A stretch of DNA of 64,000 bases from an uncultured Gammaproteobacteria bacterium (GTDB lineage Bacteria > Patescibacteriota > Patescibacteriia > UBA9934 > GWF2-40-263): positions 163,442 to 227,441 of the forward strand of contig CAYOCD010000001.1 in the NCBI GenBank assembly GCA_964402425.1, given 5' to 3'. Of the stretch, positions 3,605 to 64,000 are shown piece after piece. Below the pieces are notes generated by a model. That model did no database searches. It was not told the origin of the DNA and saw only the letters and a list, made by a program, of their open reading frames with translations. How positions within the stretch are numbered: position 1 is the first letter of the stretch; each line of letters opens with the position of its first letter. Both the position numbers and the translations under genes were made by a program.

Positions 3605-5023
3605 CTATTCCTTTGCGACCGGCAATTGATGCACAACGGCCTTCACTTCTTTTTCTGAACTCAATTTCTTTTTGACCACCGAAACAATCTTGTTAATATC
3701 AACAATTTCTTGTGCGCCGGATTCCATATCACGAATGATAATTGTTCCGTCCAACACTTCTTTTTGTCCAAGAATGATGGTGTATTGAACCGCGAGTTTA
3801 TTCGCCGCTTCAAGTTGAGCTTTCAAAGCATTCTTTCCAAAAGCTTCCGCAACTGGAATTTGTGCCATACGGAAATCTTCATACAATTTGAGACCAACAC
3901 GACGCGCAGCATCTCCAAGTTGTGCAAAAAAGACTTGTGGTTCAGGACGTTGCGGTGGATTGATTCCCATTTCTCCAAGCGCCTTTGCCACACGATCCAT
4001 TCCGATTGCAAATCCACATGCGGGCGTTGGACGACCGCCGATCAGTTCAACAAGTCCGTTGTAACGTCCGCCGCCACCGAGCGCATTTTGTGCGCGCTCA
4101 CCGTCATCCGTATCAAGAACGAATTCAAATACAGTGTGCGTATAATAATCGAGTCCGCGTACAAGATGTGGATTCAATACGTATGGAACTTGAATTTCCT
4201 CAAGGAACTCGAGCACTTTTGTGAAGTGTTCTTTTGATGCATCATCAAGCCAATCCAAAATCTGAGGCGCTTCTGCAAGCAACTCTTTCATTCCTTCTTC
4301 TTTACTATCAAGTAAACGAAGAGGGCTCTTTTGCAAACGGCGCTTATCATCTTCTGATAATTTGTTGCGATGTGGGCGGAAATAACTTGTGAGCTCTGCC
4401 AAGTATGCCTGGCGAGATTCTGGTGTGCCAATAGAGTTCACCTGAACTTTTACATTGAGTCCAAGATCTTTAAAAATTTGATATCCAAGCACAATGAGTT
4501 GAGCATCCATGATGGGCTCATGTGTTCCAAACACTTCAAATCCCGCTTGATAAAACTGGCGATATCGCCCAGCTTGTGGACGATCGTGACGGAACATTGG
4601 TCCTTCATACCAGAGCTTTACGGGTTGGGGACGATCTAACATTCCATGATTGATATATGCACGGGCAGCTGAAGCGGTTGCTTCAGGACGAAGCGCAACC
4701 ATGCGCTCTGACGGATCCACGAATGCATACATTTCTTTTTCAATAATATCTGTTTGTTTTCCAACAGTACGTTGAAATAAATCTGCACGCTCCAAAACAG
4801 GAAGATCAATACGATCAAACGTATATGCCTCTGCCAAGTTACGAACCGTGTCACGCACAAAATTCCACTTCCCTTGTTCTTCAGGCAAAATATCACGGAA
4901 TCCACGCAAAAGTTCTGGCGGAGCTTTTGCTCCACTTTTCTTTTCTTTTTCTTCTCCTCCTTCTGCTTTCTTTGGAGCAGGTGCCGGCTTTGGAGCTTCT
5001 TTCTTTTTATTGAATGGGGACAT
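3605..5023 (-). CDS. hisS: Histidyl-tRNA synthetase with a Lys/Ala/Pro-rich N-terminal extension
   Basis: Class II motifs: LRPEATASAARAY, GGGGRYNGLV (GGRYD-type), GFAIGMDRV. Start chosen at MSPFNKKKEAP (ATG); the ORF track allows 5050 via an upstream in-frame start. Confidence 0.9.
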   Translation of the reverse strand: MSPFNKKKEAPKPAPAPKKAEGGEEKEKKSGAKAPPELLRGFRDILPEEQGKWNFVRDTVRNLAEAYTFDRIDLPVLERADLFQRTVGKQTDIIEKEMYAFVDPSERMVALRPEATASAARAYINHGMLDRPQPVKLWYEGPMFRHDRPQAGRYRQFYQAGFEVFGTHEPIMDAQLIVLGYQIFKDLGLNVKVQVNSIGTPESRQAYLAELTSYFRPHRNKLSEDDKRRLQKSPLRLLDSKEEGMKELLAEAPQILDWLDDASKEHFTKVLEFLEEIQVPYVLNPHLVRGLDYYTHTVFEFVLDTDDGERAQNALGGGGRYNGLVELIGGRPTPACGFAIGMDRVAKALGEMGINPPQRPEPQVFFAQLGDAARRVGLKLYEDFRMAQIPVAEAFGKNALKAQLEAANKLAVQYTIILGQKEVLDGTIIIRDMESGAQEIVDINKIVSVVKKKLSSEKEVKAVVHQLPVAKE

Positions 5024-5089
5024 ACAAAAAATAATGATGACGAGAAACAAGTAATAAGAATAAACGTGTAATGCTACAAAAAAACTTTT

Positions 5090-5698
5090 CTACAAATTAA
5101 ACGTTGGATCTGGAAATGTTGAGGCGCGATTAAGAGGCAATCCTCTTACCCAGACACGTCCAATAAACTGCTCTCGTTTTACCGGTCCGAAACTGCGAGA
5201 ATCCATACTTTCTGGACGATTATCACCCATGACCCAATACTCATCCGCCCCGAGCGTAGACTTTTTCATGCCATCTGTCGAGACATCTCCCAAATACGCT
5301 TCTGTCAATAACACTCCGTTTGGATGATCTTCATTATAGATAGTGACGTGTCCCCCACTTACCTCTACAGTCTCTCCGGGGAGTCCGATCACGCGTTTGA
5401 TAAAAAACTCGCTTGGATTACGCGGGTAACGAAATACCACGATCTCTCCACGCTCCGGTGTGCGCAAACGATAGGAAAGTTCATCAATAATCAGATATTC
5501 AGAATCGTAAAAATTTGGTTCCATGCTCGCCCCTTTCACATAAAACGGCTGAATGAGAAAGTAACGAATTGGAATAATAATAGCGCTTGAGATGAGAATA
5601 ATCTGAATCACTTCAACGAAAAATAAAGCAACAGACGATCCAACAGGTCCGAGTTTTTTTAAAAAGATCGGTTCCAATTTTTGAAAGGTTTTTGACAT
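5090..5698 (-). CDS. lepB: Signal peptidase I (S26 family)
   Basis: 202 aa, N-terminal TM anchor, catalytic GASMEPN (Ser) box, KRVIGLPGE, and GDNR box. Confidence 0.9.
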   Translation of the reverse strand: MSKTFQKLEPIFLKKLGPVGSSVALFFVEVIQIILISSAIIIPIRYFLIQPFYVKGASMEPNFYDSEYLIIDELSYRLRTPERGEIVVFRYPRNPSEFFIKRVIGLPGETVEVSGGHVTIYNEDHPNGVLLTEAYLGDVSTDGMKKSTLGADEYWVMGDNRPESMDSRSFGPVKREQFIGRVWVRGLPLNRASTFPDPTFNL

Positions 5699-8441: not shown

Positions 8442-9809
8442 ATGACCTCCAACAATCTCCCAACCGTCGCGCTCATTGGTCGCACGAACGTTGGAAAATC
8501 CACTCTGTTCAATCGCATGATCGAACAATCAAAAGCCCTGGTCTCTGCAACGGCAGGTACCACACGCGATCGAAACGATGGCGAGTGTTTGTGGCGCGGA
8601 AGAACGATTCGAGTTGTGGATACCGGAGGATTAGATGTCAACAAACAAGACGAAATCGAAAAAAACATTTTGATCCAATCAGAGCTTGCCATGAAAGAGG
8701 CGGACATTATTTTATTTGTTGTCGATCTAAAAAATCCCCCACTCCCTACAGACCTTGAACTCGCAAGCAAACTCTGGAAAACAAAAACACCTATTATCGT
8801 TGTTGGAAACAAAGCAGAAAAAGCCGCGGAACGCCGACGCGCCCACCAACCCGATTGGCGCCTTCGTGGGCTCCCAGCCCCTATCGCCGTCTCTGCAACA
8901 CAAGGCTCTGGTGTTGGAGATCTCCTTGATCTTGTTTATGAAAAACTGACAGAGATCGGCAAACATCCCGTTGACTATAAAGAATTAAACGCAACACGTG
9001 TTGCGGTCATTGGAAAACCAAACGTCGGAAAATCCACTCTGTTAAACGCCCTCGTTGGAACAGATCGATTTATCACGAGCTCCATCGCACACACAACACG
9101 CGAACCAAATGACGTTCTGTTACACATCGGAGACAAAAACTATTTGATTTACGACACGGCCGGAATGCGTAAGCATGCAAAAATCAGCAAAGGTGGTGGA
9201 CTTGAAAAAATGGCCGTTGATAAAAACGAGTGGGTCATTCGTCAATCAGATGTTTCTCTCCTTGTCCTAGACGCAACAGAACCCATCGGTACACAAGAAA
9301 AACACCTCGCAGGAATTTTGGGGGACTCAGGAGCGGGTGTAATTATCATCGTGAACAAATGGGACTTAGTAAAAGACAAAGACACAACCACCATCAATGA
9401 TTACAAAAAATATCTTGCTGGTGAACTCCCATTCATCACATGGGCTCCGGTTATGTTCGTGAGTGCTCTCACAAAACAACGCACAAGCACCATCTTTAAA
9501 ATGATCGATGAAGTAAACCATAACAGAAGCATCGAAATCGACATGAAAGAATTGGACGGTTTCTTACGAGAAGCTCTTCGCACTCACCTTCCCTCTCTTG
9601 GAAAAGGAAAGAATCCTCCAAAAGTTATGGGGCTTAAACAAGTCTCCACAAAACCCCCAAAATTTGATCTCACCTTAAAAGCACAGCGTACAGACGCCCT
9701 TCACCCAAGCTATCTCCGTTTTATTGAGAACCGCTTGCGTGTCTTGCATGATTTTCGTGGAACACCAATCAATATAAAAGTAAGAATTGCAACAGCTGTA
9801 TCAAAATAA
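8442..9809 (+). CDS. der: Ribosome-biogenesis GTPase Der/EngA (tandem GTPase domains plus KH-like C-terminus)
   Basis: Two G1 boxes GRTNVGKST and GKPNVGKST, DTGG/DTAG, NKAE/NKWD. Confidence 0.95.
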   Translation: MTSNNLPTVALIGRTNVGKSTLFNRMIEQSKALVSATAGTTRDRNDGECLWRGRTIRVVDTGGLDVNKQDEIEKNILIQSELAMKEADIILFVVDLKNPPLPTDLELASKLWKTKTPIIVVGNKAEKAAERRRAHQPDWRLRGLPAPIAVSATQGSGVGDLLDLVYEKLTEIGKHPVDYKELNATRVAVIGKPNVGKSTLLNALVGTDRFITSSIAHTTREPNDVLLHIGDKNYLIYDTAGMRKHAKISKGGGLEKMAVDKNEWVIRQSDVSLLVLDATEPIGTQEKHLAGILGDSGAGVIIIVNKWDLVKDKDTTTINDYKKYLAGELPFITWAPVMFVSALTKQRTSTIFKMIDEVNHNRSIEIDMKELDGFLREALRTHLPSLGKGKNPPKVMGLKQVSTKPPKFDLTLKAQRTDALHPSYLRFIENRLRVLHDFRGTPINIKVRIATAVSK

Positions 9810-11521: not shown

Positions 11522-13849
11522 ATGATGCCTCTGAATATGTCACACAAACTCATCATTGTTGAGTCTCCAACGAAAGCAAAAACGATCACAAAATTTTTAG
11601 GACGCGACTATCGCGTCTTATCTTCGTTTGGACACATTCGTGATTTGCCGACAAAAGAAATTGGCGTCGATGTTGAGAATGGGTTTGTGCCAACATACAT
11701 TGTCCCCCCAAACAGCAAATCACATGTTACGGAATTAAAAAAAGCAGCAAAGGATGCAGATGAAATCTTATTCGCGTCCGATGAAGACCGCGAAGGAGAA
11801 GCGATTTCTTGGCATGTCGCGGAAGTTCTTGGAATCAATCCTGCAAAAGCAAAACGCATCACCTTTCACGAAATCACCAAGTCCGCAATCGAACACGCGC
11901 TTGCAAACCCAAGATCGATTGATCAAAACCTTGTAGACGCTCAACAGGCTCGTCGCATTCTCGATCGTTTAGTGGGTTATGAACTTTCACCGTTTCTTTG
12001 GAATAAAGTTCGTCGCGGACTCTCTGCTGGTCGTGTGCAATCTGTTGCGATGCGGTTAGTTGTTGAGCGCGAACGTGAACGCATAGCGTTTAAAATAGAA
12101 GAATACTGGTCCATTGAAGTTGTGTGTGAAAAACTCGGCATGGACTTTCCAGCAAAGCTTGTAGAAGTTGATGGGAAGAAAATCGCTGTTGGTGGATCCG
12201 AAGGTGCGGGCGAAAAGCTCGAAATCAAAACAGAAAAAGAAGCACGCGCGATCGTTGACGCTGTCACAGGCAAACCGCTGAACGTCATTGATGTTGTAAA
12301 AAAAGAAGTTTCAAAAGCACCCCCACAACCATTCACCACATCAAGTTTACAGATCGATGCCAACAACAAACTCGGCATGAGCGCAAAACAGACCATGACG
12401 CTCGCACAACAACTTTACGAAACGGGACGTATTACTTATATGCGTACAGACTCCGTAAACTTGGCCGATAAATTTCTTGATGAAGCACAAACATTCCTCG
12501 CATCTGAATTCGGAAAAGAATATGCGACGGGATCAAAAAAATATAAAACAAACAAAAAAGGCGCACAGGAAGCCCATGAAGCGATCCGTCCAACAGATCC
12601 AGCAACAACTCCAGAATCCATTCGTGCAGATCTTGAGCCACGTCTCTGGAAGCTCTATGACTTGATCTGGCGCAGAACGATCGCATCGCAAATGCCAAAC
12701 GCTCGTGTAAACCAAGTGCGTGTGGATATGGACGTTGAAAAACACACCTTCCGTGCAAATGGTTCGAGTATTCTCTTTGATGGCTACACAAAAATCTATC
12801 AAGCCACAAAAGAAAAATTCTTGCCTGACATGAAACAAGGTGATGTTGTAAACACAAAGTCCATCGAACCCATTCAACATTTTACAGAACCTCCCGCAAG
12901 ATATTCGGATGCAACACTCGTCAAAGTCCTTGAGGAATACGGAATCGGTCGTCCTTCCACCTACGCCCCAACCATCAGCACCATTATTGATCGCGGGTAC
13001 GTGGAACGTGATGACAACAAAAAACTCGGTCCTACAGACATTGCCATGATCGTATCCGATCTTCTCGTGGCACACTTCCCACAAATCGTGGATTACACAT
13101 TCACCGCAAAACTGGAAAAAGAACTTGATGATGTCGCGGAAGGTGAACTCGAGTACGGCCCCATGCTCGAACAATTCTACAAACCATTTCACCAAAATCT
13201 CATCGATAAAAACAAAGCCCTGACGCGCGATGACGTGATGCCAGACCGCATTCTCGGAAAAGATCCAGAGTCCGGACTCGATATTATTGCAAAGACAGGA
13301 CGTTACGGAGCGTTCGTTCAAATTGGCCCTTGGAGCAAGGAAGACCAAAAGGCCAAAGTAAACAAGCCAAAGAGTGCATCCATCCTCAAGGGAATGAATA
13401 TTGAATCGATCACCCTCGAGGAAGCGCTCAAATGTCTTGAACTCCCTCGAACACTCGGCACAACAAAAGAAGGCAAAACCCTCAAGGCGGCCGTTGGACG
13501 ATTTGGTCCGTATGTCACAGACGGAAAACTCTACGCCTCACTCAAAGAACCGTTTGATCCTTTATCTATCACGTTCGATCAAGCAGAAGAATTGATTGCC
13601 CTCAAAGAAATCTCTTCACGTCCACTTGCAGAACTCGGCGAGGATCCAACTACAAAAGGCGCGATCGTCGTGCGCACAGGAAGATTCGGTGCGTACGTCA
13701 CAGACGGAAAAACAAATGCATCCCTTGGAAAAACCATCGATCCTCTCACCCTCACACATGAGGAAGCGGTCGAGATCCTTATAAAAAAACGTGCGGCGCC
13801 TGTCAAAAAATTTGGCAAACGCGCATCAAAAAAAACTCAGGCTGAATAA
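11522..13849 (+). CDS. topA: DNA topoisomerase I
   Basis: N-terminal TOPRIM (LIIVESPTKAKTI, DEDREGE), an active-site Tyr region, and C-terminal repeats (GRFGPYVTDGK / GRFGAYVTDGK). Confidence 0.95.
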   Translation: MMPLNMSHKLIIVESPTKAKTITKFLGRDYRVLSSFGHIRDLPTKEIGVDVENGFVPTYIVPPNSKSHVTELKKAAKDADEILFASDEDREGEAISWHVAEVLGINPAKAKRITFHEITKSAIEHALANPRSIDQNLVDAQQARRILDRLVGYELSPFLWNKVRRGLSAGRVQSVAMRLVVERERERIAFKIEEYWSIEVVCEKLGMDFPAKLVEVDGKKIAVGGSEGAGEKLEIKTEKEARAIVDAVTGKPLNVIDVVKKEVSKAPPQPFTTSSLQIDANNKLGMSAKQTMTLAQQLYETGRITYMRTDSVNLADKFLDEAQTFLASEFGKEYATGSKKYKTNKKGAQEAHEAIRPTDPATTPESIRADLEPRLWKLYDLIWRRTIASQMPNARVNQVRVDMDVEKHTFRANGSSILFDGYTKIYQATKEKFLPDMKQGDVVNTKSIEPIQHFTEPPARYSDATLVKVLEEYGIGRPSTYAPTISTIIDRGYVERDDNKKLGPTDIAMIVSDLLVAHFPQIVDYTFTAKLEKELDDVAEGELEYGPMLEQFYKPFHQNLIDKNKALTRDDVMPDRILGKDPESGLDIIAKTGRYGAFVQIGPWSKEDQKAKVNKPKSASILKGMNIESITLEEALKCLELPRTLGTTKEGKTLKAAVGRFGPYVTDGKLYASLKEPFDPLSITFDQAEELIALKEISSRPLAELGEDPTTKGAIVVRTGRFGAYVTDGKTNASLGKTIDPLTLTHEEAVEILIKKRAAPVKKFGKRASKKTQAE

Positions 13850-53060: not shown

Positions 53061-53094
53061 AGAAAAACCCCAAGTGTTCAGAGAACACTTGGGG
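53061..53094 (-). terminator. Strong rho-independent terminator after the helicase gene
   Basis: Minus strand: ccccaagtgttc-tct-gaacacttgggg (12-bp stem) followed by tttttctttt. Confidence 0.8.
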
Positions 53095-53105
53095 TAAGAA
53101 AACCT

Positions 53106-56100
53106 CTACTGCAGGAGTTGCGTCGGCAATCCAGGGAACATGTTGAGACCGTCTTTGAGAACACGCTCGACATCGACCTTCGTCTTCCCCACCTTGCGAT
53201 AGAGACTGATTTTGGTCGAACCATTCCCGGGAATCACATGACACCACCAGGGTTCGCCTGCATTCGGGTACCGGGACAGATCGTCGCCATAGGGAGCATC
53301 GACAAGCTCGCGCTTGTACTCTGCAACCATGGTTCCGTTGCCGCGATCTCTGAACGTGAGGCAAACAACTTCACCCGATGTCACTTTTCGCTTGAGGTCA
53401 TCAACAAATGCGAGTTCGGCTTCAAGAGCCTTCTTCGCCTCGTCGAGTTCCGCAAGCCAAATTTCAATAAGCTCTTTATCTTCCACAAGTGACCGTGGAA
53501 GCCGGATCACATTTGAACGAACCACAACGCATTCTTCGCGATCAATGCGTTGACGTTCAATACGCGCCGCATTTTCACGCTCCAGCCGTTCAACGATCTC
53601 CGCATATCGCCGCAGTTCATTCGGCGCCGTCGTGAGATCAAACGCGTTCGTGCTATTCACACGCACACACGTAATCTCACGCTGATTACTATCACGGAAT
53701 TCCATCCGCTTTCCGCCCGAGTAATCGAACACGTACCCAAGGGCACGCACACGAGCATCGAGCACGGCGAACTCTTCGCGTAGTGGAGCGAATTCGGCTT
53801 GCGCCTTTTCGCGCGCCTTGCGCGTTTCTTCTTCGCGACGAGCATGCTCTGCGGCCACCTCACGTTCACGCTGCAGTTCTGCCGCGTGTTCCGCTTGGTA
53901 CGCCTTGAGCGCGTCGCCTGTGAGTATATCTTCTGACGTTATGGTGTTCATCGCAGCGACAACGAGTTCAGGTGTGGATTCCGCCACAATCTTTTTCGCA
54001 ATCGCTTTCGTGAACTGATCCACATACGGCTGAATGCGCTTGCGGCGCTCTTCTCCATAAACATACAACGCACTCGTCGGAAAATTCTGCTGCCACAGCT
54101 TTGCGAGCTGCGGTGCATTATTAACGAAAAACCCAAACCCGTCCGAAAGCTGCATTGCAACCAAAGCGGCAATGGACGGAATGAGCGTTTCCGGAATCGT
54201 CTCCAAGGTTTTACGCTCGAGTTCGATTCCGTTCCAGGTGCGACAACAAACGAACATCTCAGCACCGCTCGAGAAAATATTTTCTCGTGCCACACTAACC
54301 ACAGTCTTACACGCTTCCACCGGAACAAGTTCCGACAACCATTTCTCGTCAATCGCATGACATCCGTGCATGTAGGTTTTGGTTCCACGATCGCTCGTGG
54401 TTCCCATTGCCTTCGTGCACACAAGCAATTCCGGCGGATCATCTCCAAACAGCGCAGAGCCGGGAGAGATGAACGTCGTGCGATCGTTCCAGGAATAATT
54501 GAACCGCCCAGACTTCTGAGCGATATTCACAATGAGCCCCGAGGCAACAGCCTTGCGGAGCTTGAGGGAATCTTGCGACGACGAATAGGTAACCCCTTCC
54601 TGCTCGAGCGTGCTCATCAGTTGATCGCGCAAACGATCCACCTGAGTGAGCGCACGAGACGAAAGGAAATTCTCCCTCGCCCACCGATGATCTCCGTCGG
54701 TCCGGTCCCAGTCCCGCCACACCTTGAGAAAAGTGAGCAAGTCCGAGTTCGGATCGTCAAAGCCTTTCTTCGCCCGACGAGCTTCTTCACGCTTGTCCTT
54801 CGGAGCAACGAAGATCGGCCTCGTGCCGGCAAGGCACGCAGCGATCGTGATCACTTCATCGAGACATTCGTGCCGTTCGCCCTCGAGAATCATGCGCCCA
54901 ATCATCGGCTCCACATGGAACCGCTTCATCCGCATGCCATCCTTCGTGACCTCGCCGTCCGCATCGAGCGCACCGAGCAGCTTCAGACGCGTTTCCGCAT
55001 CCTTCCACTGCACAGTCTTCGGTGCATCCATGAGATCTAGGGCGAGAATTTCCGAAAGCGTATACTTCAGGCAGCGCAAATCCAGGAGCACTTGATCGAG
55101 CGACATGCGCAGGATCTCGGGCTTCGTGAACGCCACGCGGCTTTCGAAATCTTCCTGACTGAACAGACGATGGCAGATGCCATCTTGAGTTCGACCCGCC
55201 CGGCCCTTACGCTGATCGCAACCGGCACGAGAGTGCTCGGTGACTTGCAGCGCAGACATCGACGCATCCACGTACACCGTTGCCTTGATCTGTCCAGAGT
55301 CGACCACGTGTCGAACTCCGTCAATCGTGAGCGAGGTTTCCGCGATGTTCGTCGCCACAATGATGCGGCGGCGACCATCCACCTTGAACACTTCTTTCTG
55401 ATCATCCGGCGCCTGCGAGCCGTAAAGCGGCAGGAACCGATAGCGCGACAATTCGCGTTCCTTTTCCTTCTCGAGAGCATTCACGACTTGCGTGATGCTT
55501 GCTTGATCAGGGAGAAACGCAAGAATGTCGCCCGGCTCATTGTTGTGCAAGATCTCGAGAATCTTCTCGATCATTGCCTTGACCATGTCGCCGCTCTCCG
55601 GCGTCTCCTTCGCGTAGCGGACCTCGACCGGGAAAACCCGACCAGGAACCGTGAGCACAGGAGCGTTGCCGAAGTACTTCGAGAACTTCTCCGTATCGAT
55701 CGTGGCCGACATGACCACAACCTTGAGGTCTGCACGCTTCGGGAGCACGCTCTTCACGAGCGCCATGAGAAGGTCTTGATTCACGCCGCGCTCATGCACC
55801 TCGTCGAGGCAGATGACGCTGTAGCGATGAAGAAGCGGATCCGAATGGAGCTGGTTCAGCAGCACACCTTCGGTGATGTACGCGAGTCGCGTTTCATCTC
55901 CGAGCATACGATCCTGTCCAATCTGGTAACCCACCACAGCCCCGAGATCGGTGCCGTAGAGTTCAGACACCCAGTCTGCGAGCATGGTCGCAGCCGGCCG
56001 CCGAGGTTCGGAAACCCCGATTAGCTTGTGGCTACCGAGTCCGGCCCGCAAAAGCGCGAGCGGACCCTTGGTCGACTTTCCCGCGCCGGTTTGGGCGGCG

Positions 56101-56180
56101 AGAATGACAACCTGGTTTTTACGAACAAGGTCGAGAAACTCGGCCTCATATGCATCAAACGGAAGAATGAGTTCAGACAC
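53106..56180 (-). CDS. DEAH/RHA-family ATP-dependent helicase (HrpB/HrpA-like) with an uncharacterised about 440-aa C-terminal extension; visibly GC-rich gene
   Basis: Motif I AQTGAGKST, II LDEVHER, V TNIAETSLTIDGV, VI QRKGRAGR, then HA2/OB-like. The C-terminal half is rich in coiled-coil/charged segments. GC is clearly above flanks by eye. Confidence 0.8.
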   Translation of the reverse strand: MSELILPFDAYEAEFLDLVRKNQVVILAAQTGAGKSTKGPLALLRAGLGSHKLIGVSEPRRPAATMLADWVSELYGTDLGAVVGYQIGQDRMLGDETRLAYITEGVLLNQLHSDPLLHRYSVICLDEVHERGVNQDLLMALVKSVLPKRADLKVVVMSATIDTEKFSKYFGNAPVLTVPGRVFPVEVRYAKETPESGDMVKAMIEKILEILHNNEPGDILAFLPDQASITQVVNALEKEKERELSRYRFLPLYGSQAPDDQKEVFKVDGRRRIIVATNIAETSLTIDGVRHVVDSGQIKATVYVDASMSALQVTEHSRAGCDQRKGRAGRTQDGICHRLFSQEDFESRVAFTKPEILRMSLDQVLLDLRCLKYTLSEILALDLMDAPKTVQWKDAETRLKLLGALDADGEVTKDGMRMKRFHVEPMIGRMILEGERHECLDEVITIAACLAGTRPIFVAPKDKREEARRAKKGFDDPNSDLLTFLKVWRDWDRTDGDHRWARENFLSSRALTQVDRLRDQLMSTLEQEGVTYSSSQDSLKLRKAVASGLIVNIAQKSGRFNYSWNDRTTFISPGSALFGDDPPELLVCTKAMGTTSDRGTKTYMHGCHAIDEKWLSELVPVEACKTVVSVARENIFSSGAEMFVCCRTWNGIELERKTLETIPETLIPSIAALVAMQLSDGFGFFVNNAPQLAKLWQQNFPTSALYVYGEERRKRIQPYVDQFTKAIAKKIVAESTPELVVAAMNTITSEDILTGDALKAYQAEHAAELQREREVAAEHARREEETRKAREKAQAEFAPLREEFAVLDARVRALGYVFDYSGGKRMEFRDSNQREITCVRVNSTNAFDLTTAPNELRRYAEIVERLERENAARIERQRIDREECVVVRSNVIRLPRSLVEDKELIEIWLAELDEAKKALEAELAFVDDLKRKVTSGEVVCLTFRDRGNGTMVAEYKRELVDAPYGDDLSRYPNAGEPWWCHVIPGNGSTKISLYRKVGKTKVDVERVLKDGLNMFPGLPTQLLQ

Positions 56181-60096: not shown

Positions 60097-60756
60097 ATGT
60101 CCCAACAAAAAATCATCGTTGCTGTTGATACGGTCATCTTTACCGTTCATGATGACGAACTCTGCGTACTCCTCATTCAAATGAAAAAAACACCGTACAC
60201 AGGACTCTGGGCCTTCCCTGGCGGTCGAGTCGAAAATACTGAAACGACAGAACAAACCGCAATTCGTATTTTAAAAGAACAAACCGGTGTTTCAAACGTT
60301 TACCTTGAACAACTCAAAACCTTTGATTCTATTGAGCGAGATCAGCTGGAGCGTGTCATCTCCGTTGCCTCCTTTGCCCTTATCTCCTCATCAGATATTC
60401 ATCTCACAACAACCGACAAATACGCAGACGTAAAGTGGTGGCCGATCAAAAAGCTTCCAGAATTAGCCTACGACCACAAATATATCGCCAAAGAAGCGAT
60501 CGTTCGATTAAAAAGCCGGCTTCAGTACACAAACATCGCCTGGAGTCTGCTTACCGACGAGTTTACCCTCACAGACTTACAGCGTATTTACGAAATTATT
60601 CTTGATACCACCATAGATAAACGTAACTTCCGTAAGCGAATCCTCGCCCTCGACCTCATCTCCTCCGTCGGCAAGAAACGTGGCGGCGAAGCAAACCGCC
60701 CAGCAGAGCTTTACAAGTTCAAGCACAAAAAGCTTGAATATGTGGAGATTATGTAG
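60097..60756 (+). CDS. nrtR: NrtR-type regulator: Nudix (ADP-ribose-binding) domain fused to a C-terminal winged-helix DNA-binding domain
   Basis: Nudix box GGRVENTETTEQTAIRILKEQTG (degenerate GX5EX7REUXEEXGU) and a C-terminal NFRKRILALDLISSVGKKRGGEANRPAELYKF typical of NrtR wHTH. Confidence 0.75.
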   Translation: MSQQKIIVAVDTVIFTVHDDELCVLLIQMKKTPYTGLWAFPGGRVENTETTEQTAIRILKEQTGVSNVYLEQLKTFDSIERDQLERVISVASFALISSSDIHLTTTDKYADVKWWPIKKLPELAYDHKYIAKEAIVRLKSRLQYTNIAWSLLTDEFTLTDLQRIYEIILDTTIDKRNFRKRILALDLISSVGKKRGGEANRPAELYKFKHKKLEYVEIM

Positions 60757-60905
60757 GGAAAGGGCGGAAGTGGCAGAGAGGGCAGAAAAGGCGGAAAGGA
60801 ACGAAAGAAACAAGAGCCAATTTGGCTCTTTTTTGTTCACGCTTTCCACCCCATCCCTTTCCGCCCATTCCGCCTTTTCAGCCTTTTCCGCCCTTTTTCA
60901 TTACG
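60757..60905. repeat. About 150-nt imperfect inverted repeat (purine-rich GGCGGAAAGG-type arm / pyrimidine-rich CCTTTCCGCC-type arm) centred on a perfect intrinsic terminator (about 60811-60836)
   Basis: Left arm gggaaagggcggaag...ggcggaaagg. Centre aagagccaa-tttggctct-tttttt. Right arm ctttccacc...ccgccttttcagccttttccgccc. Plus ORF 60680..60910 and minus ORF 60577..60849 here are spurious. Confidence 0.6.
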
Positions 60906-60914
60906 TTTGACATA

Positions 60915-60939
60915 AGTAAGTGTCTATATTACACTTACT
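60915..60939 (+). promoter_or_regulatory. 25-bp palindrome AGTAAGTGT-n7-ACACTTACT overlapping TTGACA / TATAAT-like hexamers upstream of pncA (candidate operator)
   Basis: 9-bp perfect arms. TTGACA at about 60907 and TATAAT at about 60939 are 26 nt apart, so the promoter assignment is uncertain. Confidence 0.4.
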
Positions 60940-61122
60940 ATAATTTAAAGGACATTTCAAACAAAAAACACCTAAGAAAAACCATTGACATTTTGCGCAA
61001 AATTGGATATTCTTCCCCGTCCTAAGGTGGTGTTTTTCAATGAATACATCTGCGGAAAACACAGGGTTTCCCGCAGATGCCGTTCGTTGAACGTCCCCAT
61101 GGTGGGGATTGAGGTGAGAGCC

Positions 61123-61881
61123 ATGTTGAATGATGAAGGTTTGATTCAGATCGGAAAGGGTGATGCGGTCATCGTCGTCGATGCCACGGGAGCATTCGGT
61201 CCGGACGGCGGACTGCCCGTGCCCGGCGCCCTTGAGATCATCAAGGTCATTCGAGAACTCGTCTTGAAGTTCAAGCGCCGTCAGCGCTTCAACGTCTTTG
61301 ATGCGCACCCAAGAGGTCACATCAACTATCGCACCTCCTACGTGAAGCGGGCCCGTGGTCCGCTCAACATCACGGAAGTTCTGGGCAATAAGATCAAGAT
61401 TGCGAGTCATGCACTCTTCACCCGCGAAGATTTGATCGCCTACCTCATGCGTCTGAATCGGCACGAAACACTCCTCTGGGACGAACATGCCGAAATGACC
61501 ACAAGCGAGATTCGTCTCTTCGACGGTCTGCGCGATCTCGAAGACGCATTCGTCCTTCACTTCCCGAAGGGCACGGATCCAAAAATCGACAGCTACAGTG
61601 CGTTTCGCGATACGCTTTGGATGCCGACCGGTCTTGGTCGCATTCTAAAAGAACGTGGCATCAAACGTGTATTCATCGTCGGTCTTGCGTTCGACTTCTG
61701 CGTTGGCTTCACAGCTGAAGACGCCGCGCTCGAAGGTTTCGAGTCCTACATCGTCCGCGACGGTACACGCTCTGTCGGCCTTCCCGCCGAAGGTGACTAC
61801 CCCGGTTCGATTGCCTTCATGGAAGCGCGTCTCATCGCTCGCGGTGTAAAGTGCATCAACTCGAATCAGATCCAAGCCTAA
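61123..61881 (+). CDS. pncA: Nicotinamidase / pyrazinamidase (isochorismatase-like cysteine hydrolase)
   Basis: VIVVDATGAFGPDGGLPVPGA (D...G), IVGLAFDFCVGFTAEDAALEGF (catalytic Cys). Start at MLNDEG with SD gaggtgag 8 nt upstream; the track ORF begins at 60985. GC-rich. Confidence 0.8.
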   Translation: MLNDEGLIQIGKGDAVIVVDATGAFGPDGGLPVPGALEIIKVIRELVLKFKRRQRFNVFDAHPRGHINYRTSYVKRARGPLNITEVLGNKIKIASHALFTREDLIAYLMRLNRHETLLWDEHAEMTTSEIRLFDGLRDLEDAFVLHFPKGTDPKIDSYSAFRDTLWMPTGLGRILKERGIKRVFIVGLAFDFCVGFTAEDAALEGFESYIVRDGTRSVGLPAEGDYPGSIAFMEARLIARGVKCINSNQIQA

Positions 61882-61947
61882 TTCACTCGCTCTTTTAGCC
61901 CCCCTCGCTCTTCATCTCGAAGGGCCCTTTTCTTAAGCACCTCAACC

Positions 61948-61990
61948 AGTGGGATGCTTCAATCAAAGGTTCGGAACAAGCAGGAGGTCG
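61948..61990 (+). promoter_or_regulatory. Conserved 5'-UTR motif copy 1 (TGGGAYGCTTCAATCAAARGYTCRGAACA...AGGAG) immediately upstream of nadD
   Basis: agtgggatgcttcaatcaaaggttcggaacaagcaggaggtcg followed by the TTG start. Contains the gttcggaac palindrome. Confidence 0.55.
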
Positions 61991-61991
61991 T

Positions 61992-62627
61992 TTGAAAGAA
62001 GAATGCAACGAACAAAAACCACGGACAATCCTCTACAGCGGGAGTTTTGATCCTCCGGGATATCACAACACAGCAACAGCAAAAGCTCTCGCAGATTTTG
62101 CATCGGAAAATGACGTCGTTTGGATTCTTCCTTACGGAGGTCGTCCGAAAAAAAACGGAATCTCGAAATGGCAGGATCGCAGAGAGATGATTCTCCGTGC
62201 GCTGTGTGGATCCAAAAAAACCATTCTGGATTTCATGGATCTCAAACACAGAGAAATGACACCGAACATTGATATGGACCGACGCTTTCGAGACAGACAG
62301 CCGAACCGTGAGGTGTGGCATGTAATCGGAGCGAATATGATTGTGGGTGGAGCAAAGAAACAGTCGAAGATTCATCAGAGGTGGAAAGAGGGACCTTGGG
62401 TCTTTGACCACTTGAACTTCATTATTCTTGTAACACCAAATTCACCAATCAACAAAGAAGACCTTCCTCCGCGCCACAATATCCTGAGAGTGAACACTCA
62501 AGGGACAAGTCAGGAAATTCGGAATCGGGTATCGCGCGGCGAACCGATCGATCATCTTGTTCCTTCGAACGTACTTTCGTACATTCAGGAACACAAACTG
62601 TACTTTCCCAACTCTGCAGAGACCTAA
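61992..62627 (+). CDS. nadD: Nicotinate/nicotinamide mononucleotide adenylyltransferase (NadD-like), TTG start
   Basis: ILYSGSFDPPGYHN (nucleotidyltransferase (H/T)xGH-type motif) and C-terminal SQEIRNRVSRGEPIDHLVPSNVLSYIQEHKLY (ISSTxIR-like). SD caggagg 4 nt before TTG. Confidence 0.75.
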   Translation: MKEECNEQKPRTILYSGSFDPPGYHNTATAKALADFASENDVVWILPYGGRPKKNGISKWQDRREMILRALCGSKKTILDFMDLKHREMTPNIDMDRRFRDRQPNREVWHVIGANMIVGGAKKQSKIHQRWKEGPWVFDHLNFIILVTPNSPINKEDLPPRHNILRVNTQGTSQEIRNRVSRGEPIDHLVPSNVLSYIQEHKLYFPNSAET

Positions 62628-62661
62628 AAAAATCTCTGCCTTTTTCTCAAGCGCCCCAAAT

Positions 62662-62704
62662 GCTGGGACGCTTCAATCAAAAGCTCAGAACACAAGGAGA
62701 CTCG
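62662..62704 (+). promoter_or_regulatory. Conserved 5'-UTR motif copy 2 immediately upstream of the first LOG/SLOG-like gene
   Basis: gctgggacgcttcaatcaaaagctcagaacacaaggagactcg followed by ATG. About 75% identical to copy 1 over 43 nt, with an identical 12-nt core GCTTCAATCAAA. A terminator-like hairpin gcagaga...tctctgc overlaps the nadD stop just upstream. Confidence 0.55.
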
Positions 62705-63478
62705 ATGTCTATCATCATTCCTTCCCTGTTCATAAAGAACCAAGGAGATCAGTCAGTGAAGATCGCTCTGAAGCTGACGACCGCTCGGCAACGAGTTGTT
62801 GTACGGATCACGGGTGGATGCGGATATATGTCTGACGAAGACACGCAAGATTTTCTCTCGCTCTTCGCGGAAGCGTTCTCTGGTTTTGCGGGCGCCATGC
62901 TCTTTGGTGGCACACGCATGATCGAGAAAGAAAACGCTTCAAGAATTGTCCCCGGGATCACCGAGATTCCGTCGCACATTCGCGAGCGTTGTCCAGAAAT
63001 GGTTTCGCTTGGAGTCGTTCCAAGAACCTCTGACATTAAAATCACAGAACACGGACTCGTGGTTTCGGAGAGTGATGAGGATGCGTATCGCACCATCATT
63101 CATCCAAGCCAAGACATGTGCCTGCTGGTTCAAGTGTCTCCGGATCAACCGGCCATTTGGGATGCCGAGTTCGAAGAGTGCCTTCAGATCACGCGCGACC
63201 TGCGCGAGTTCGCGGAGTTCAAGTCACTACTCGTTGTTTACAACGGTGGTGGCGTGACCGAACGCGAACTTCTTGCAACAGCAAAACAGGGCTGGCCGAT
63301 TCTGCTCATCAAGGGCAGCGGCCGCATCGCGGATGCGTACGCAGCGAACACGAAGTTCCTTGCCGCACACCCAAATGTTCGCGTCGCAGAAAAAGATTCT
63401 GACGACATCAGGCAACATCTCATTTCATTCGGGATGCTTCCCCCGGAGAAACTGCGTCTCGTGAAATCACGGGCGTAG
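62705..63478 (+). CDS. Rossmann-like protein with LOG/SLOG-like glycine motifs (paralog A), function unknown
   Basis: RITGGCGYM (compare GGGxxGxM) and LFGGTRMIE (compare PGGxGTxEE). Start at MSIIIPS with SD aaggag 6 nt upstream; the track ORF begins at 62660 inside the UTR motif. Confidence 0.55.
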   Translation: MSIIIPSLFIKNQGDQSVKIALKLTTARQRVVVRITGGCGYMSDEDTQDFLSLFAEAFSGFAGAMLFGGTRMIEKENASRIVPGITEIPSHIRERCPEMVSLGVVPRTSDIKITEHGLVVSESDEDAYRTIIHPSQDMCLLVQVSPDQPAIWDAEFEECLQITRDLREFAEFKSLLVVYNGGGVTERELLATAKQGWPILLIKGSGRIADAYAANTKFLAAHPNVRVAEKDSDDIRQHLISFGMLPPEKLRLVKSRA

Positions 63479-63503
63479 AAAATCAGGAAGTACGTTGGTG
63501 ATC

Positions 63504-64000
63504 ATGACAACGACAGCCAGAACCGTAACAGGGGCAGGTGGGAAAACTTACCTGCTTATCCAAGACAAGCGTGATCAAATCCCCACAACGTTCGCCCTCA
63601 TGGCAACGCGTGCGGGAGAGAAAGTATGTTTGCGCATCAGTGGCGGATGCAAAGGAATGGATGGTGATGATAAGCGTGCCATGATCGGCTTTTTCCTGAT
63701 GGCCCTCGAAGGCTTCAAGGGAATGATCTGGTCGGGTGGCACACGTCAGTTCGACAAAGACATCGTTCTTGACCCCATGGTCACGGACATTCCCGGTTTC
63801 ATCGCAGCCTCAAATCCCGAATGTGTTGCACTCGGCTCCGCTCCGCGTACGGACGTCTTGCGCCTCACGGGCGAATCACATCTGATGCTCGACGATTACG
63901 GCACCGCGCCGAATCCGGCCATGAATGCAATTCTGCTTGTGCAGGATGGTGCGGAAGGCAAACTCGACTGGGACGGCGATCTGAATGCCGCCTTCGAACT
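63504..64000 (+). CDS. Paralog B of the LOG/SLOG-like Rossmann protein (3' end beyond window)
   Basis: Manual translation MTTTARTVTGAGGKTYLLIQDK...RISGGCKGMDGDD...IWSGGTRQFDKD...LLVQDGAEGKLDWDGD aligns with paralog A (RITGGCGYMSDED...LFGGTRMIE...LLVQVSPDQPAIWDAE). Confidence 0.55.
   Translation, partial: MTTTARTVTGAGGKTYLLIQDKRDQIPTTFALMATRAGEKVCLRISGGCKGMDGDDKRAMIGFFLMALEGFKGMIWSGGTRQFDKDIVLDPMVTDIPGFIAASNPECVALGSAPRTDVLRLTGESHLMLDDYGTAPNPAMNAILLVQDGAEGKLDWDGDLNAAFE

What the first reader, a model, noticed from the sequence alone, without database searches (positions are those of the whole stretch)
61948..62704. Repeated about 43-nt 5'-UTR motif (core GCTTCAATCAAA) upstream of nadD and the first LOG-like gene
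Two copies share about 75% identity over 43 nt with an identical 12-nt core. Each ends in an SD plus start codon. A weaker TTCAATGAA-containing version sits about 75 nt upstream of pncA. Such gene-by-gene repetition of a UTR motif inside one regulon is the signature of either a transcription-factor operator (NrtR box candidates are palindromic around GTTC..GAAC / GCTT..AAGC here) or a cis-regulatory RNA element that controls translation of each cistron.
Basis: seen in the sequence. Interest (0 to 1): 0.6.

Follow-up and report, generated by a model that had tools for sequence, protein, structure and literature searches.

The report
Repeated double-hairpin spacers in NAD operon
The two similar stretches are real copies of a structured spacer (a hairpin, a short CCTTTTCT tract, then a second conserved hairpin) that sits between almost every gene of the NAD-salvage operon of this uncultured Uhrbacteria (CPR) bacterium and its relatives; it most likely acts on the operon's RNA rather than as the binding site of the NrtR repressor.

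Summary
The two copies (61924-61978 and 62638-62692) are 78% identical over 55 nt. They belong to a family of at least 23 elements in syntenic NAD clusters of six or more Candidatus Uhrbacteria lineages.

Each element has four parts:
- a variable GC-rich hairpin (H1) just after the upstream gene;
- an almost invariant C(C/T)TTTTCT tract;
- a conserved second hairpin, H2 (type A here; type B further down the operon);
- a purine tract that can pair back to the pyrimidine tract.

All copies lie on the coding strand. None was found outside the NAD cluster in about 134 kb searched. The elements are 84-94% identical between lineages whose fourfold-degenerate sites are near saturation, and the stems show some compensatory changes. 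Distant CPR NAD operons keep the same architecture with unrelated sequence.

The likely NrtR operator is elsewhere. It is a perfect 21-bp GT-N7-AC palindrome at 60917-60937 inside a sigma-70-type promoter, once per cluster.

My best reading is an operon-specific intercistronic RNA "punctuation" module (a weak attenuator or 3' protector plus a long hairpin for processing or protection). The mechanism is inferred, not shown. General masking of the ribosome-binding site was tested and not supported. Rfam has no match.

The parts
61907..61925 (+). H1 of copy 1: GC-rich hairpin GCTCTTC-ATCTC-GAAGGGC, 25 nt after the pncA stop codon and directly next to the pyrimidine tract
   Evidence: Flagged as terminator-like. 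Folded.
61926..61969 (+). Type A element, copy 1. CCTTTTCT tract 61926-61933. Base helix P1: 61926-61930 pairs with 61965-61969. Hairpin H2 61935-61959 (AAGCA-C-CTCA..TGGG-A-TGCTT, with a C.A mismatch).
   Evidence: Covariance model R1 gives 62.7 bits, E 8e-12. Fold. Pair counts.
61983..61994 (+). Shine-Dalgarno GGAGG and TTG start of the 211-aa nadD-like adenylyltransferase (61992-62627)
62616..62639 (+). H1 of copy 2: GCAGAGA-loop-TCTCTGC. The nadD-like stop codon TAA (62625-62627) lies in its loop, an arrangement conserved in L013, L018 and L020.
62640..62683 (+). Type A element, copy 2. CTTTTTCT tract 62640-62647. P1: 62640-62644 pairs with 62679-62683. H2 62649-62673 (AAGCG-C-CCCA..TGGG-A-CGCTT).
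   Evidence: R1 gives 61.5 bits, E 1.6e-11. Fold z-score -2.3. The A-U to G-C and C-G to U-A changes relative to copy 1 are compensatory.
62695..62707 (+). Shine-Dalgarno AAGGAG and ATG start of the first SLOG (LSDAT_prok) protein (62705-63478)
60917..60937 (.). Probable NrtR operator: perfect 21-bp palindrome TAAGTGT-CTATATT-ACACTTA with a GT-N7-AC core, between the -35 TTGACA (60907) and TACACT. It is not part of the repeated element.
   Evidence: Family consensus from PMC2330246.
60985..61013 (+). Second sigma-70-type promoter-like site (TTGACA-17-TATTCT). This and the site at 60907-60935 are the only ones found for the whole cluster.
   Evidence: Conserved in L012, L013, L018 and L143.
61036..61122 (+). 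Conserved structured pncA 5' leader. It has a long hairpin with base TTCAATGAA/TTCGTTGAA and core 61047-61079, then a CCCC..GGGG hairpin that abuts the Shine-Dalgarno sequence. It is architecturally analogous to the repeated element but not homologous to it.
   Evidence: (I11).

Best explanation
The motif is one member (type A) of an operon-specific family of structured intercistronic RNA modules. These modules punctuate the polycistronic NAD-salvage mRNA: pncA, nadD-like, SLOG, SLOG, pncB, Nudix, radical SAM, nadE.

Each module reads, 5' to 3' on the mRNA:
- H1, a stable hairpin of variable sequence that closes the upstream cistron;
- the near-invariant tract C(C/U)UUUUCU;
- H2, a conserved irregular hairpin;
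- a purine tract (AAAGG or GAAGG) that pairs back to the pyrimidine tract. Together these form one long hairpin of about 45-50 nt stacked against H1.

Proposed action (inferred). The operon is transcribed from the NrtR-controlled promoter region upstream of pncA. At each junction, H1 with its short U-tract acts as a weak attenuator and as a 3' barrier to exonucleases. The long double-stranded H2 hairpin serves as a processing or 5'-protection structure, for example an RNase III-type site of the kind found between phage T7 early genes. Individual cistrons would then get their own stability and dosage.

Shown here: the anatomy, the orientation, the restriction to the operon, strong purifying selection, the pairing, and the absence of internal promoter-like sites.

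Inferred, not shown: termination efficiency, any cleavage, and any effect on expression.
For: Anatomy. Every intercistronic gap of 73 nt or more that carries an element has H1, the C(C/T)TTTTCT tract and H2. There are 5 in the window genome (L001), 2 in L012, 4 in L013, 4 in L018, 5 in L068/L143, and further copies in L019, L020 and L131. In every copy examined, H1 ends 0-2 nt before the tract.

Strand and specificity. Covariance models R1 and R2 hit only these copies at E<1e-7, always on the coding strand. Reverse-strand scores are E>0.01. There are no hits elsewhere in the 64-kb window or in the flanks, 134 kb in all. Every true hit of a metagenome pattern scan was in a NAD cluster.

Structure.
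- 94% (type A) and 81% (type B) of cells are paired, against 31-62% when the partner is slid.
- 3 pairs (type A) and 6 pairs (type B) show changes on both sides. For type B, 0 of 500 shuffles reach this.
- The three type B copies in L018 have different inner stems that all still pair.
- Type B folds with z-scores of -4.5 to -5.9.

Selection. Elements are 84-94% identical between lineages in which fourfold-degenerate sites are only 28-60% identical.

No internal promoter-like sites. The only sigma-70-type sites in the cluster are the two upstream of pncA. In contrast, the 26 control intergenic regions outside NAD clusters mostly show a terminator with a long T-run, commonly followed by a TTGACA-type promoter-like sequence, and none shows the full H1 + Y-tract + H2 arrangement (one, L146 3764-3848, adjoining that NAD cluster, partly resembles it).

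Deeper conservation. Distant CPR NAD operons (L144, L145, L146) have no sequence match. They keep the same plan with other sequences: a strong hairpin, a short pyrimidine tract (CUUUCC; absent in L146), then a long hairpin that closes on a purine tract such as AAAGG.
Against: - No transcript data exist, so neither 3' ends at H1 nor cleavage in H2 is shown.
- The U-tract (4-5 U after one or two C) is weaker than the genuine terminators of these genomes. It shrinks to CUUUCC or disappears in distant lineages, so termination may be negligible.
- Covariation rests on few sequences, and the alignments were fitted to the model.
- Conserved C.A mismatches on the coding strand would be G.U pairs on the opposite strand. 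Simple folding is often more stable for the reverse complement. Wobble asymmetry therefore does not settle the strand.
- The very high primary-sequence conservation of the lower stem and the tract is more than a generic stabiliser needs. It hints at a specific partner that I could not identify.
Confidence: 0.55

Rival explanations
1. Regulated riboregulator. H2 plus the invariant pyrimidine tract is the binding site of a dedicated trans-acting factor: an RNA-binding protein (possibly encoded in the operon) or a small NAD-pathway ligand. That factor would tune read-through, stability or translation gene by gene, in the way PyrR acts at repeated attenuators in the Bacillus pyr operon.
For: The primary sequence of the tract and the lower stem is far more conserved than neutral sites. 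Mismatches and 1x1 loops in the stems are conserved. The element is restricted to NAD operons and repeated before each cistron. The pncA leader carries an analogous long hairpin.
Against: Types A and B, and the L144 family, have unrelated hairpin sequences, so there is no common ligand pocket. The conserved hairpin lies downstream of the terminator-like hairpin, not upstream of it or overlapping it, so the classical antiterminator logic does not apply. There is no Rfam match, including to the known NAD+ riboswitches. No candidate RNA-binding protein was found in the cluster.
Confidence: 0.15
2. Translational control by masking. The pyrimidine tract pairs with the Shine-Dalgarno region of the downstream gene (a fourU-like or anti-SD hairpin), so that each cistron is translated only when the hairpin is opened.
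For: In several type B and L144-type copies, the purine strand of P1 is or overlaps the Shine-Dalgarno sequence, for example GAAGGAG 8-12 nt before the start.
Against: In both window copies, and in most type A copies, the paired purines lie 15-25 nt upstream of the real Shine-Dalgarno sequence. The distance from element to start ranges from 53 to 191 nt. Across 29 junctions the predicted unpaired probability of the Shine-Dalgarno sequence equals that of shuffled controls, 0.33 against 0.33.
Confidence: 0.07
3. DNA-level operator. The palindromic H2 is bound by NrtR or another dimeric transcription factor. It would act as an internal operator or roadblock that stalls RNA polymerase at the preceding hairpin.
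For: H2 is an inverted repeat. Type B has an 11-N(4-6)-11 layout and high sequence conservation. NrtR is encoded next to the cluster.
Against: There is no GT-N7-AC core and no 21-bp symmetry. The canonical NrtR box is present once per cluster, in the promoter. The spacer length varies from 4 to 6 between copies. Within one genome the two arms change together to unrelated sequences (L018 and L068 copies). The non-palindromic flanks (CCTTTTCT and GAAG) are the most conserved parts and have a fixed orientation relative to transcription.
Confidence: 0.05
4. Recombination junction. The repeated elements are primarily boundaries for the exchange of gene cassettes within NAD operons. They would act either as homology arms or as folded single-stranded DNA sites for an unknown recombinase, and any expression role would be secondary.
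For: The window pncB is only 29% identical to the pncB of L013 and L068. The nadE of L013 is 22% identical to the window nadE. In both cases the flanking elements are conserved and homology breaks at the element edges. The SLOG pair is flanked by two type A copies in L012 but is absent from L013. L068 lacks the nadD-like gene and has one chimeric type A copy whose 5' part resembles window copy 1 and whose 3' part resembles copy 2. The reverse-complement strand often folds better.
Against: No recombinase or integrase gene is in or next to any cluster. There are no attC core sites (RYYYAAC / GTTRRRY), and loop lengths vary, which is incompatible with a tyrosine-recombinase core. Orthologous copies keep position-specific flanks, so they are stably inherited. 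Breakpoints at the only conserved non-coding sequence are expected from ordinary homologous recombination.
Confidence: 0.08
5. The similarity is a passive by-product. Intergenic spacers were copied along with genes when the operon was assembled, and they have no function beyond supplying a hairpin and a ribosome-binding site.
For: Window copy 1 (pncA to nadD-like) is absent from the same junction in L012, L013, L018, L019 and L020, so it is a recent duplicate.
Against: Elements are 84-94% identical across lineages whose synonymous sites are near saturation. Some are conserved next to genes that have been replaced. The architecture persists with different sequences in distant CPR lineages.
Confidence: 0.05

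Closest known systems
RNase III processing hairpins between the early genes of phage T7 (R0.3, R0.5, R1.1 and others)
   Same: Both are a family of related, irregular hairpins of about 50 nt with internal loops, repeated in the intercistronic gaps of one polycistronic transcript and co-oriented with it. After cleavage the T7 hairpins leave a 3' hairpin on the upstream message. This comparison is from my own knowledge.
   Different: No cleavage is shown here. Type A has only about 14 base pairs including P1. Each element is preceded by a separate hairpin, H1. The host is a CPR bacterium, and the operon is metabolic and chromosomal.
PyrR-dependent attenuators of the Bacillus subtilis pyr operon
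   Same: Both have a conserved RNA hairpin plus a terminator-like hairpin, repeated in the leader and in the intercistronic regions of a single nucleotide-metabolism operon.
   Different: In pyr, the protein-binding hairpin lies upstream of and overlaps an antiterminator and terminator. Here the conserved hairpin follows the terminator-like hairpin. No alternative pairing and no binding protein are evident.
REP/BIME intercistronic palindromes (for example E. coli malE-malF) and other intercistronic stabiliser stem-loops
   Same: Both are stable hairpins placed after a cistron inside an operon, and they can protect the upstream message and cause partial termination.
   Different: REP elements are dispersed genome-wide in hundreds of copies. 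These elements were found only in the NAD operon and carry an invariant CCUUUUCU tract and a second conserved hairpin.
NrtR operators (Rodionov et al. 2008, PMC2330246)
   Same: Both are associated with NAD-metabolism genes next to an NrtR gene.
   Different: NrtR sites are 21-bp palindromes with a GT-N7-AC core in promoter regions. That description fits 60917-60937 and does not fit the repeated motif.
Integron attC sites
   Same: Both are an imperfect hairpin after each gene of an array. Structure is more conserved than sequence across lineages, and gene content varies at the boundaries.
   Different: There are no R''/R' core sequences and no integrase. The elements are short (28-45 nt). All the genes belong to one pathway, and the junctions are inherited orthologously.

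Membership tests
NrtR operator | 21-bp palindrome with a conserved GT-N7-AC core (PMC2330246) | tested here: not met
   Neither type A nor type B contains it. Searching for TAAGTGT-N7-ACACTTA with up to 3 mismatches finds only 60917-60937 in the cluster.
NrtR operator | Located in the promoter region of NAD genes and bound by NrtR, with release by ADP-ribose | not testable with these tools
   The motif lies between cistrons where no promoter-like site is found. Binding needs EMSA.
Known RNA families, including NAD+ riboswitches class I (nadA) and class II (pnuC) | Match to the Rfam covariance model | tested here: not met
   cmscan of 60700-64000 and of L001 7900-13500 at E<=10 and E<=5 gives no hit on any element.
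Intrinsic (Rho-independent) terminator | GC-rich hairpin followed immediately by a U-rich tract | tested here: inconclusive
   H1 plus CCTTTTCT passes a simple consensus scan in 3 of 5 junctions of L001. However, there are only 4-5 T after 1-2 C, against T5-T8 in genuine terminators of the same genomes. The tract decays in distant lineages.
RNase III substrate (T7-like) | Roughly two turns of double-stranded RNA, often with an internal loop, cleaved by RNase III | not testable with these tools
   Type B forms about 18 pairs over 20 rungs with ΔG -24 to -25 kcal/mol. Type A forms about 14 pairs. Cleavage is untested.
PyrR-type or other protein-dependent attenuator | The conserved binding hairpin precedes or overlaps an antiterminator-terminator pair | tested here: not met
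   The order is terminator-like H1 first, then conserved H2. H1 and the sequence upstream of it are not conserved.
FourU or anti-SD translational hairpin | The Shine-Dalgarno sequence of the regulated gene is sequestered in the hairpin | tested here: not met
   Shine-Dalgarno accessibility equals that of shuffled controls over 29 junctions. The spacing to the start codon is variable.
REP/BIME-type dispersed repeat | Many copies dispersed across the intergenic regions of the genome | tested here: not met
   There are no covariance-model hits outside the NAD cluster in 134 kb. Only part of each genome could be searched.
Integron attC | RYYYAAC and GTTRRRY core sites flanking the hairpin, and an integrase nearby | tested here: not met
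   The core sites are absent from alignments A2 and A3. No integrase is among the called genes.

The most novel reading that the evidence does not exclude
The elements are a previously undescribed class of operon-specific structured RNA. Its architecture, but not its sequence, is conserved across Parcubacteria NAD-salvage operons, with one copy in front of every cistron. The invariant CCUUUUCU tract and lower stem would be read by a dedicated factor (a protein or a metabolite of the NAD/ADP-ribose pathway). That would add gene-by-gene post-transcriptional control on top of NrtR. The repeated copies would also serve as the junctions at which whole genes (pncB, nadE, the SLOG pair, nadD-like) are swapped between lineages.
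Probability: 0.2. Interest if true: 0.75.

Novelty: new variant of a known kind. Interest (0 to 1): 0.5.

Why it matters
CPR bacteria are uncultured, have tiny genomes and depend on salvage pathways, and almost nothing is known about how they regulate genes after transcription starts. This is a concrete, testable case:
- a nine-gene NAD operon with no promoter-like sites apart from the two just upstream of its first gene;
- a canonical NrtR box;
- a conserved structured module at each gene junction, under stronger selection than the coding sequence around it.

If the modules set cistron-specific RNA stability or read-through, they show how a minimal organism tunes enzyme stoichiometry without extra regulators. 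If they bind a factor, they are a new riboregulator class.

The coincidence of gene-replacement breakpoints with the modules also suggests a simple route for modular operon evolution. For genome annotation, the result separates the true NrtR site from a look-alike repeat.

Tried and rejected
- Rfam at permissive thresholds on the window region and on the downstream operon gave nothing on the elements. The only hits were spurious miRNA-like matches to the long purine/pyrimidine inverted repeat at 60757-60897.
- Coding explanation. The 12-mer is read in different frames relative to the two downstream genes. The ATG at 62660 that would extend SLOG1 is not conserved in relatives. Rejected.
- Internal promoters. 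No sigma-70-like sites in any junction, and no sigma-54-like or ECF-like spacing on inspection. Rejected.
- NrtR operator. Rejected on motif grounds.
- General Shine-Dalgarno masking. Tested and not supported.
- Third copy upstream of pncA. Not detected by either covariance model.
- Viral contig scans for both types returned only chance coding hits.
It gives only a partial answer on genome-wide distribution.
- Assigning the strand by G.U against A.C asymmetry was inconclusive. Both kinds of non-Watson-Crick pair are conserved, and the reverse complement often folds better. A stricter stem-only count failed on bulged stems.
- Xer/dif-like 11-6-11 sites and attC were considered and rejected, because the spacer varies and the core sequences are missing.
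- Two literature searches found no description of such elements.
Full report
**Observation.** The window ends in a NAD-salvage cluster:
- NrtR, a Nudix plus winged-helix regulator, 60097-60756;
- a nicotinamidase-like isochorismatase, 61123-61881;
- a divergent 211-aa nicotinate-nucleotide adenylyltransferase-like protein, 61992-62627;
- two SLOG (LSDAT_prok) proteins, starting at 62705 and 63498.

The reported repeat is real. GCTTCAATCAAA occurs exactly twice in 64 kb. The two intergenic regions share 55 nt at 78% identity, 61924-61978 against 62638-62692. The best 43-nt window has 34 of 43 matches, against a maximum of 25 in 300 shuffles. Each copy is followed by a Shine-Dalgarno sequence and a start codon.

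**The repeat belongs to a larger family.** A metagenome contig identical to the window (L001; window coordinate = L001 coordinate + 56203) continues the cluster with pncB, an ADP-ribose-pyrophosphatase-like Nudix, a radical SAM protein and a glutamine-dependent NAD synthase.

Apart from the 19-nt SLOG1-SLOG2 gap, every junction shows structured spacers. Five of the six carry the full module (the SLOG2-to-pncB gap is the composite variant described below):
- a GC-rich hairpin of variable sequence (H1);
- directly after it, C(C/T)TTTTCT;
- a second hairpin (H2);
- a purine tract.

The two window copies have H2 = AAGCR-C-CYCA..TGGG-A-YGCTT, which I call type A. The three junctions after pncB, Nudix and radical SAM have H2 = CAC-x-CGCCGAC..GTCGRCG-x-GTG followed by AAG, which I call type B. 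The pncB leader carries a composite variant.

Minimum-free-energy folds consistently pair CCUUUU with the downstream AAAGG or GAAGG. This helix (P1) encloses H2 and gives one long irregular hairpin that abuts H1.

**Relatives.** The adenylyltransferase-like protein has only six 90%-identity clusters among 5.8 billion proteins. Their contigs, plus a GTDB genome (Candidatus Uhrbacteria, L018), are syntenic. They share MurA, an M50 peptidase, BtpA and a DEAD/HA2 helicase on one side, so the organism is a CPR bacterium.
- Type A follows the adenylyltransferase-like gene in all of these lineages, whatever gene comes next.
- Type B follows pncB and the genes after it.
- A metagenome pattern scan added two more lineages (L068 = L143, which is Uhrbacteria RIFCSPHIGHO2_12_FULL_47_12, and L131). 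Their stems are more diverged.
- Window copy 1 (pncA to adenylyltransferase) is missing from that junction in L012, L013, L018, L019 and L020, so it is a lineage-specific duplicate.

**Structure, strand and specificity.** On hand-specified structures, 96% (type A) and 78% (type B) of cells pair.

On alignments built with the covariance models:

| Measure | Type A | Type B |
|---|---|---|
| Cells paired | 94% | 81% |
| Cells paired when the partner is slid | 31-62% | 36-49% |
| Pairs changed on both sides | 3 | 6 |
| Shuffles reaching that number | 19 of 500 | 0 of 500 |

. These alignments lean towards the model, and the sample is small.

The clearest evidence for structure comes from L018 and L068. 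Copies within a single genome have unrelated inner stems that still pair, for example CGCCGAC/GTCGGCG against ACTTCA/TGGAGT and TGCTGAC/GTCGGCA.

Models R1 and R2 find the known copies at E 1e-7 to 1e-17, always on the coding strand. They find nothing comparable in the rest of the window or in the flanks, 134 kb in all.

Strand assignment from wobble pairs is ambiguous. P1 and some stem positions carry U.G on the coding strand. However, conserved C.A mismatches would be G.U on the other strand, and the reverse complement often folds better.

**Selection.** Between L001 and L013, fourfold-degenerate sites in conserved residues are 28-38% identical, which is close to saturation. Between L001 and L012, L018 or L068 they are 50-63% identical. 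The elements are 84-94% identical in the same comparisons. They are therefore under strong purifying selection on primary sequence, especially the pyrimidine tract and the lower stem.

**Gene swaps at the elements.**
- The window pncB is only 29% identical to the pncB of L013 and L068.
- The nadE of L013 is 22% identical to the window nadE.
- In both cases neighbouring genes are 58-90% identical. DNA homology stops within a few nucleotides of the replaced gene and resumes at CCTTTTCT or at the operon terminator.
- L012 carries the SLOG pair between two type A copies, where L013 has a single copy.
- L068 lacks the adenylyltransferase-like gene and has one chimeric type A copy, with a 5' part like window copy 1 and a 3' flank like copy 2.

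Recombination between copies has therefore reshaped the operon.

**Where NrtR binds.** Published NrtR motifs are 21-bp palindromes with a GT-N7-AC core (PMC2330246). TAAGTGT-CTATATT-ACACTTA at 60917-60937 is a perfect example. It lies between TTGACA and TACACT of a sigma-70-type promoter. The same half-sites occur once per cluster in L012, L018 and L068, and L013 has a close variant. A second promoter (TTGACA-17-TATTCT, 60985-61013) follows. No promoter-like site occurs at any internal junction. The repeated motif has no GT-N7-AC core.

**Controls and deeper conservation.** Twenty-six co-directional intergenic regions outside NAD clusters in these genomes were folded. Most are a hairpin with a long T-run, commonly followed by a canonical TTGACA-type promoter-like sequence, or are REP-like palindromes. 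None shows the full H1, pyrimidine tract, H2 arrangement; one (L146 3764-3848, next to that lineage's NAD cluster) has a strong hairpin followed by a small CCUUC/GAAGG hairpin and so partly resembles it.

The radical SAM protein is found in NAD clusters across Parcubacteria. In three distant lineages the covariance models find nothing. The junctions there still show a strong hairpin followed at once by a second, long hairpin, usually opening with a short pyrimidine tract (CUUUCC in L144; absent in L146) and, in L144 and L145, closing on a purine tract such as AAAGG. In L144 there are nine such junctions, with CUUU/AAAG invariant and five inner pairs changed on both sides. The architecture is therefore older than any one sequence family.

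**Mechanism.** The element is anchored to the end of the upstream gene, since H1 abuts the tract in every copy examined. Its distance to the next start codon is variable, 53-191 nt. Predicted Shine-Dalgarno accessibility is the same as in shuffled controls. General translational masking is therefore not supported.

H1 plus CCUUUUCU looks like an intrinsic terminator, but it has a shorter U-tract than genuine terminators in these genomes. The tract shrinks further in distant lineages.

With no promoter-like sites apart from the two upstream of pncA, the most economical reading is an RNA-level punctuation module. H1 acts as a weak attenuator and a 3' exonuclease barrier. The long P1-H2 hairpin acts as a double-stranded processing site or 5'-protective structure. 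This is analogous to the RNase III sites between T7 early genes, or to intercistronic stabilisers (comparison from my own knowledge).

The pncA leader has an analogous long hairpin whose base is TTCAATGAA/TTCGTTGAA. Each cistron, including the first, would thus be preceded by a long hairpin and followed by a closing hairpin.

The unusually strong sequence conservation leaves room for a specific, unidentified binding partner. None of these functional steps has been observed; they are inferences from anatomy.

**Verdict.**
- The NrtR-operator reading is rejected in favour of the palindrome at 60917-60937.
- The cis-acting RNA reading is supported in general, but not as a translational switch.
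- The element family is absent from Rfam, and two literature searches found no description of it.
- I classify it as a new variant of a known kind (intercistronic structured elements), of moderate interest. It would rank higher if a specific factor or ligand is found.

Noticed in passing
window 60907-61013: Two tandem sigma-70-type promoters lie upstream of pncA. The first contains a perfect 21-bp NrtR-type palindrome (60917-60937), and the second (TTGACA-17-TATTCT) has none. The spacing between the two varies from about 80 to about 280 nt among relatives.
   Followed up: partly
window 61016-61125: The pncA 5' leader of about 100 nt is conserved in five lineages. It has a long hairpin (base TTCAATGAA/TTCGTTGAA, core 61047-61079 with a conserved A.C mismatch), then a CCCC..GGGG hairpin that touches the Shine-Dalgarno sequence. 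There is no Rfam match. It could be a regulatory leader in its own right.
   Followed up: partly
window 60757-60897: A long imperfect inverted repeat lies downstream of NrtR: 41-nt arms, 80% complementary, purine-rich GGCGGAAAGG-type against CCTTTCCGCC-type. It surrounds a bidirectional terminator-like hairpin at 60812-60830. This repeat caused the spurious miRNA hits in Rfam.
   Followed up: no
window 53071-53091: A perfect palindrome CAAGTGTTC-AGA-GAACACTTG with a GT-N7-AC core lies just past the 3' end of the 1024-aa ORF (53106-56180, minus strand), which is probably the DEAD/HA2-type helicase seen at the syntenic position in L012 and L013. It could be a second NrtR-like site or simply a terminator.
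   Followed up: no
window 61000-64000; L012 9149-13995; L013 9140-18212: The NAD cluster has 50-54% GC against 43-49% in the flanking chromosome in each of three lineages (window profile). This suggests an old acquisition or a distinct compositional constraint.
   Followed up: partly
L001 8229-9491 and 11340-13310 (beyond the window end); L013 12369-13643 and 16182-18212: pncB and nadE have been replaced in situ by distant homologues (29% and 22% identity) in otherwise syntenic clusters.
   Followed up: partly
L001 10256-11203; L143-L146: A radical SAM protein of about 315 aa and unknown function (weak MoaA-like or SPASM-like matches only) lies between pncB and nadE in the NAD-salvage clusters of the Parcubacteria lineages examined.
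   Followed up: partly
window 62705-63478 and 63498 to beyond 64000: Two tandem SLOG (LSDAT_prok) proteins are embedded in a NAD-salvage operon next to an ADP-ribose-pyrophosphatase-like Nudix. Their presence varies between lineages in a cassette-like way.
   Followed up: no
L012 about 8930-8960 and the 3' end of the locus; L013 IGR 12096-12368; L068rc 4978-5163: REP-like GC-rich palindromes that begin with GTAG (for example GTAGGGGACGGTCGCGACCGTCCCCTAC) and short CCCCTCC..GGAGGGG hairpins are inserted at variable places in the intergenic regions of relatives, including inside the loop of the pncB-leader hairpin.
   Followed up: no
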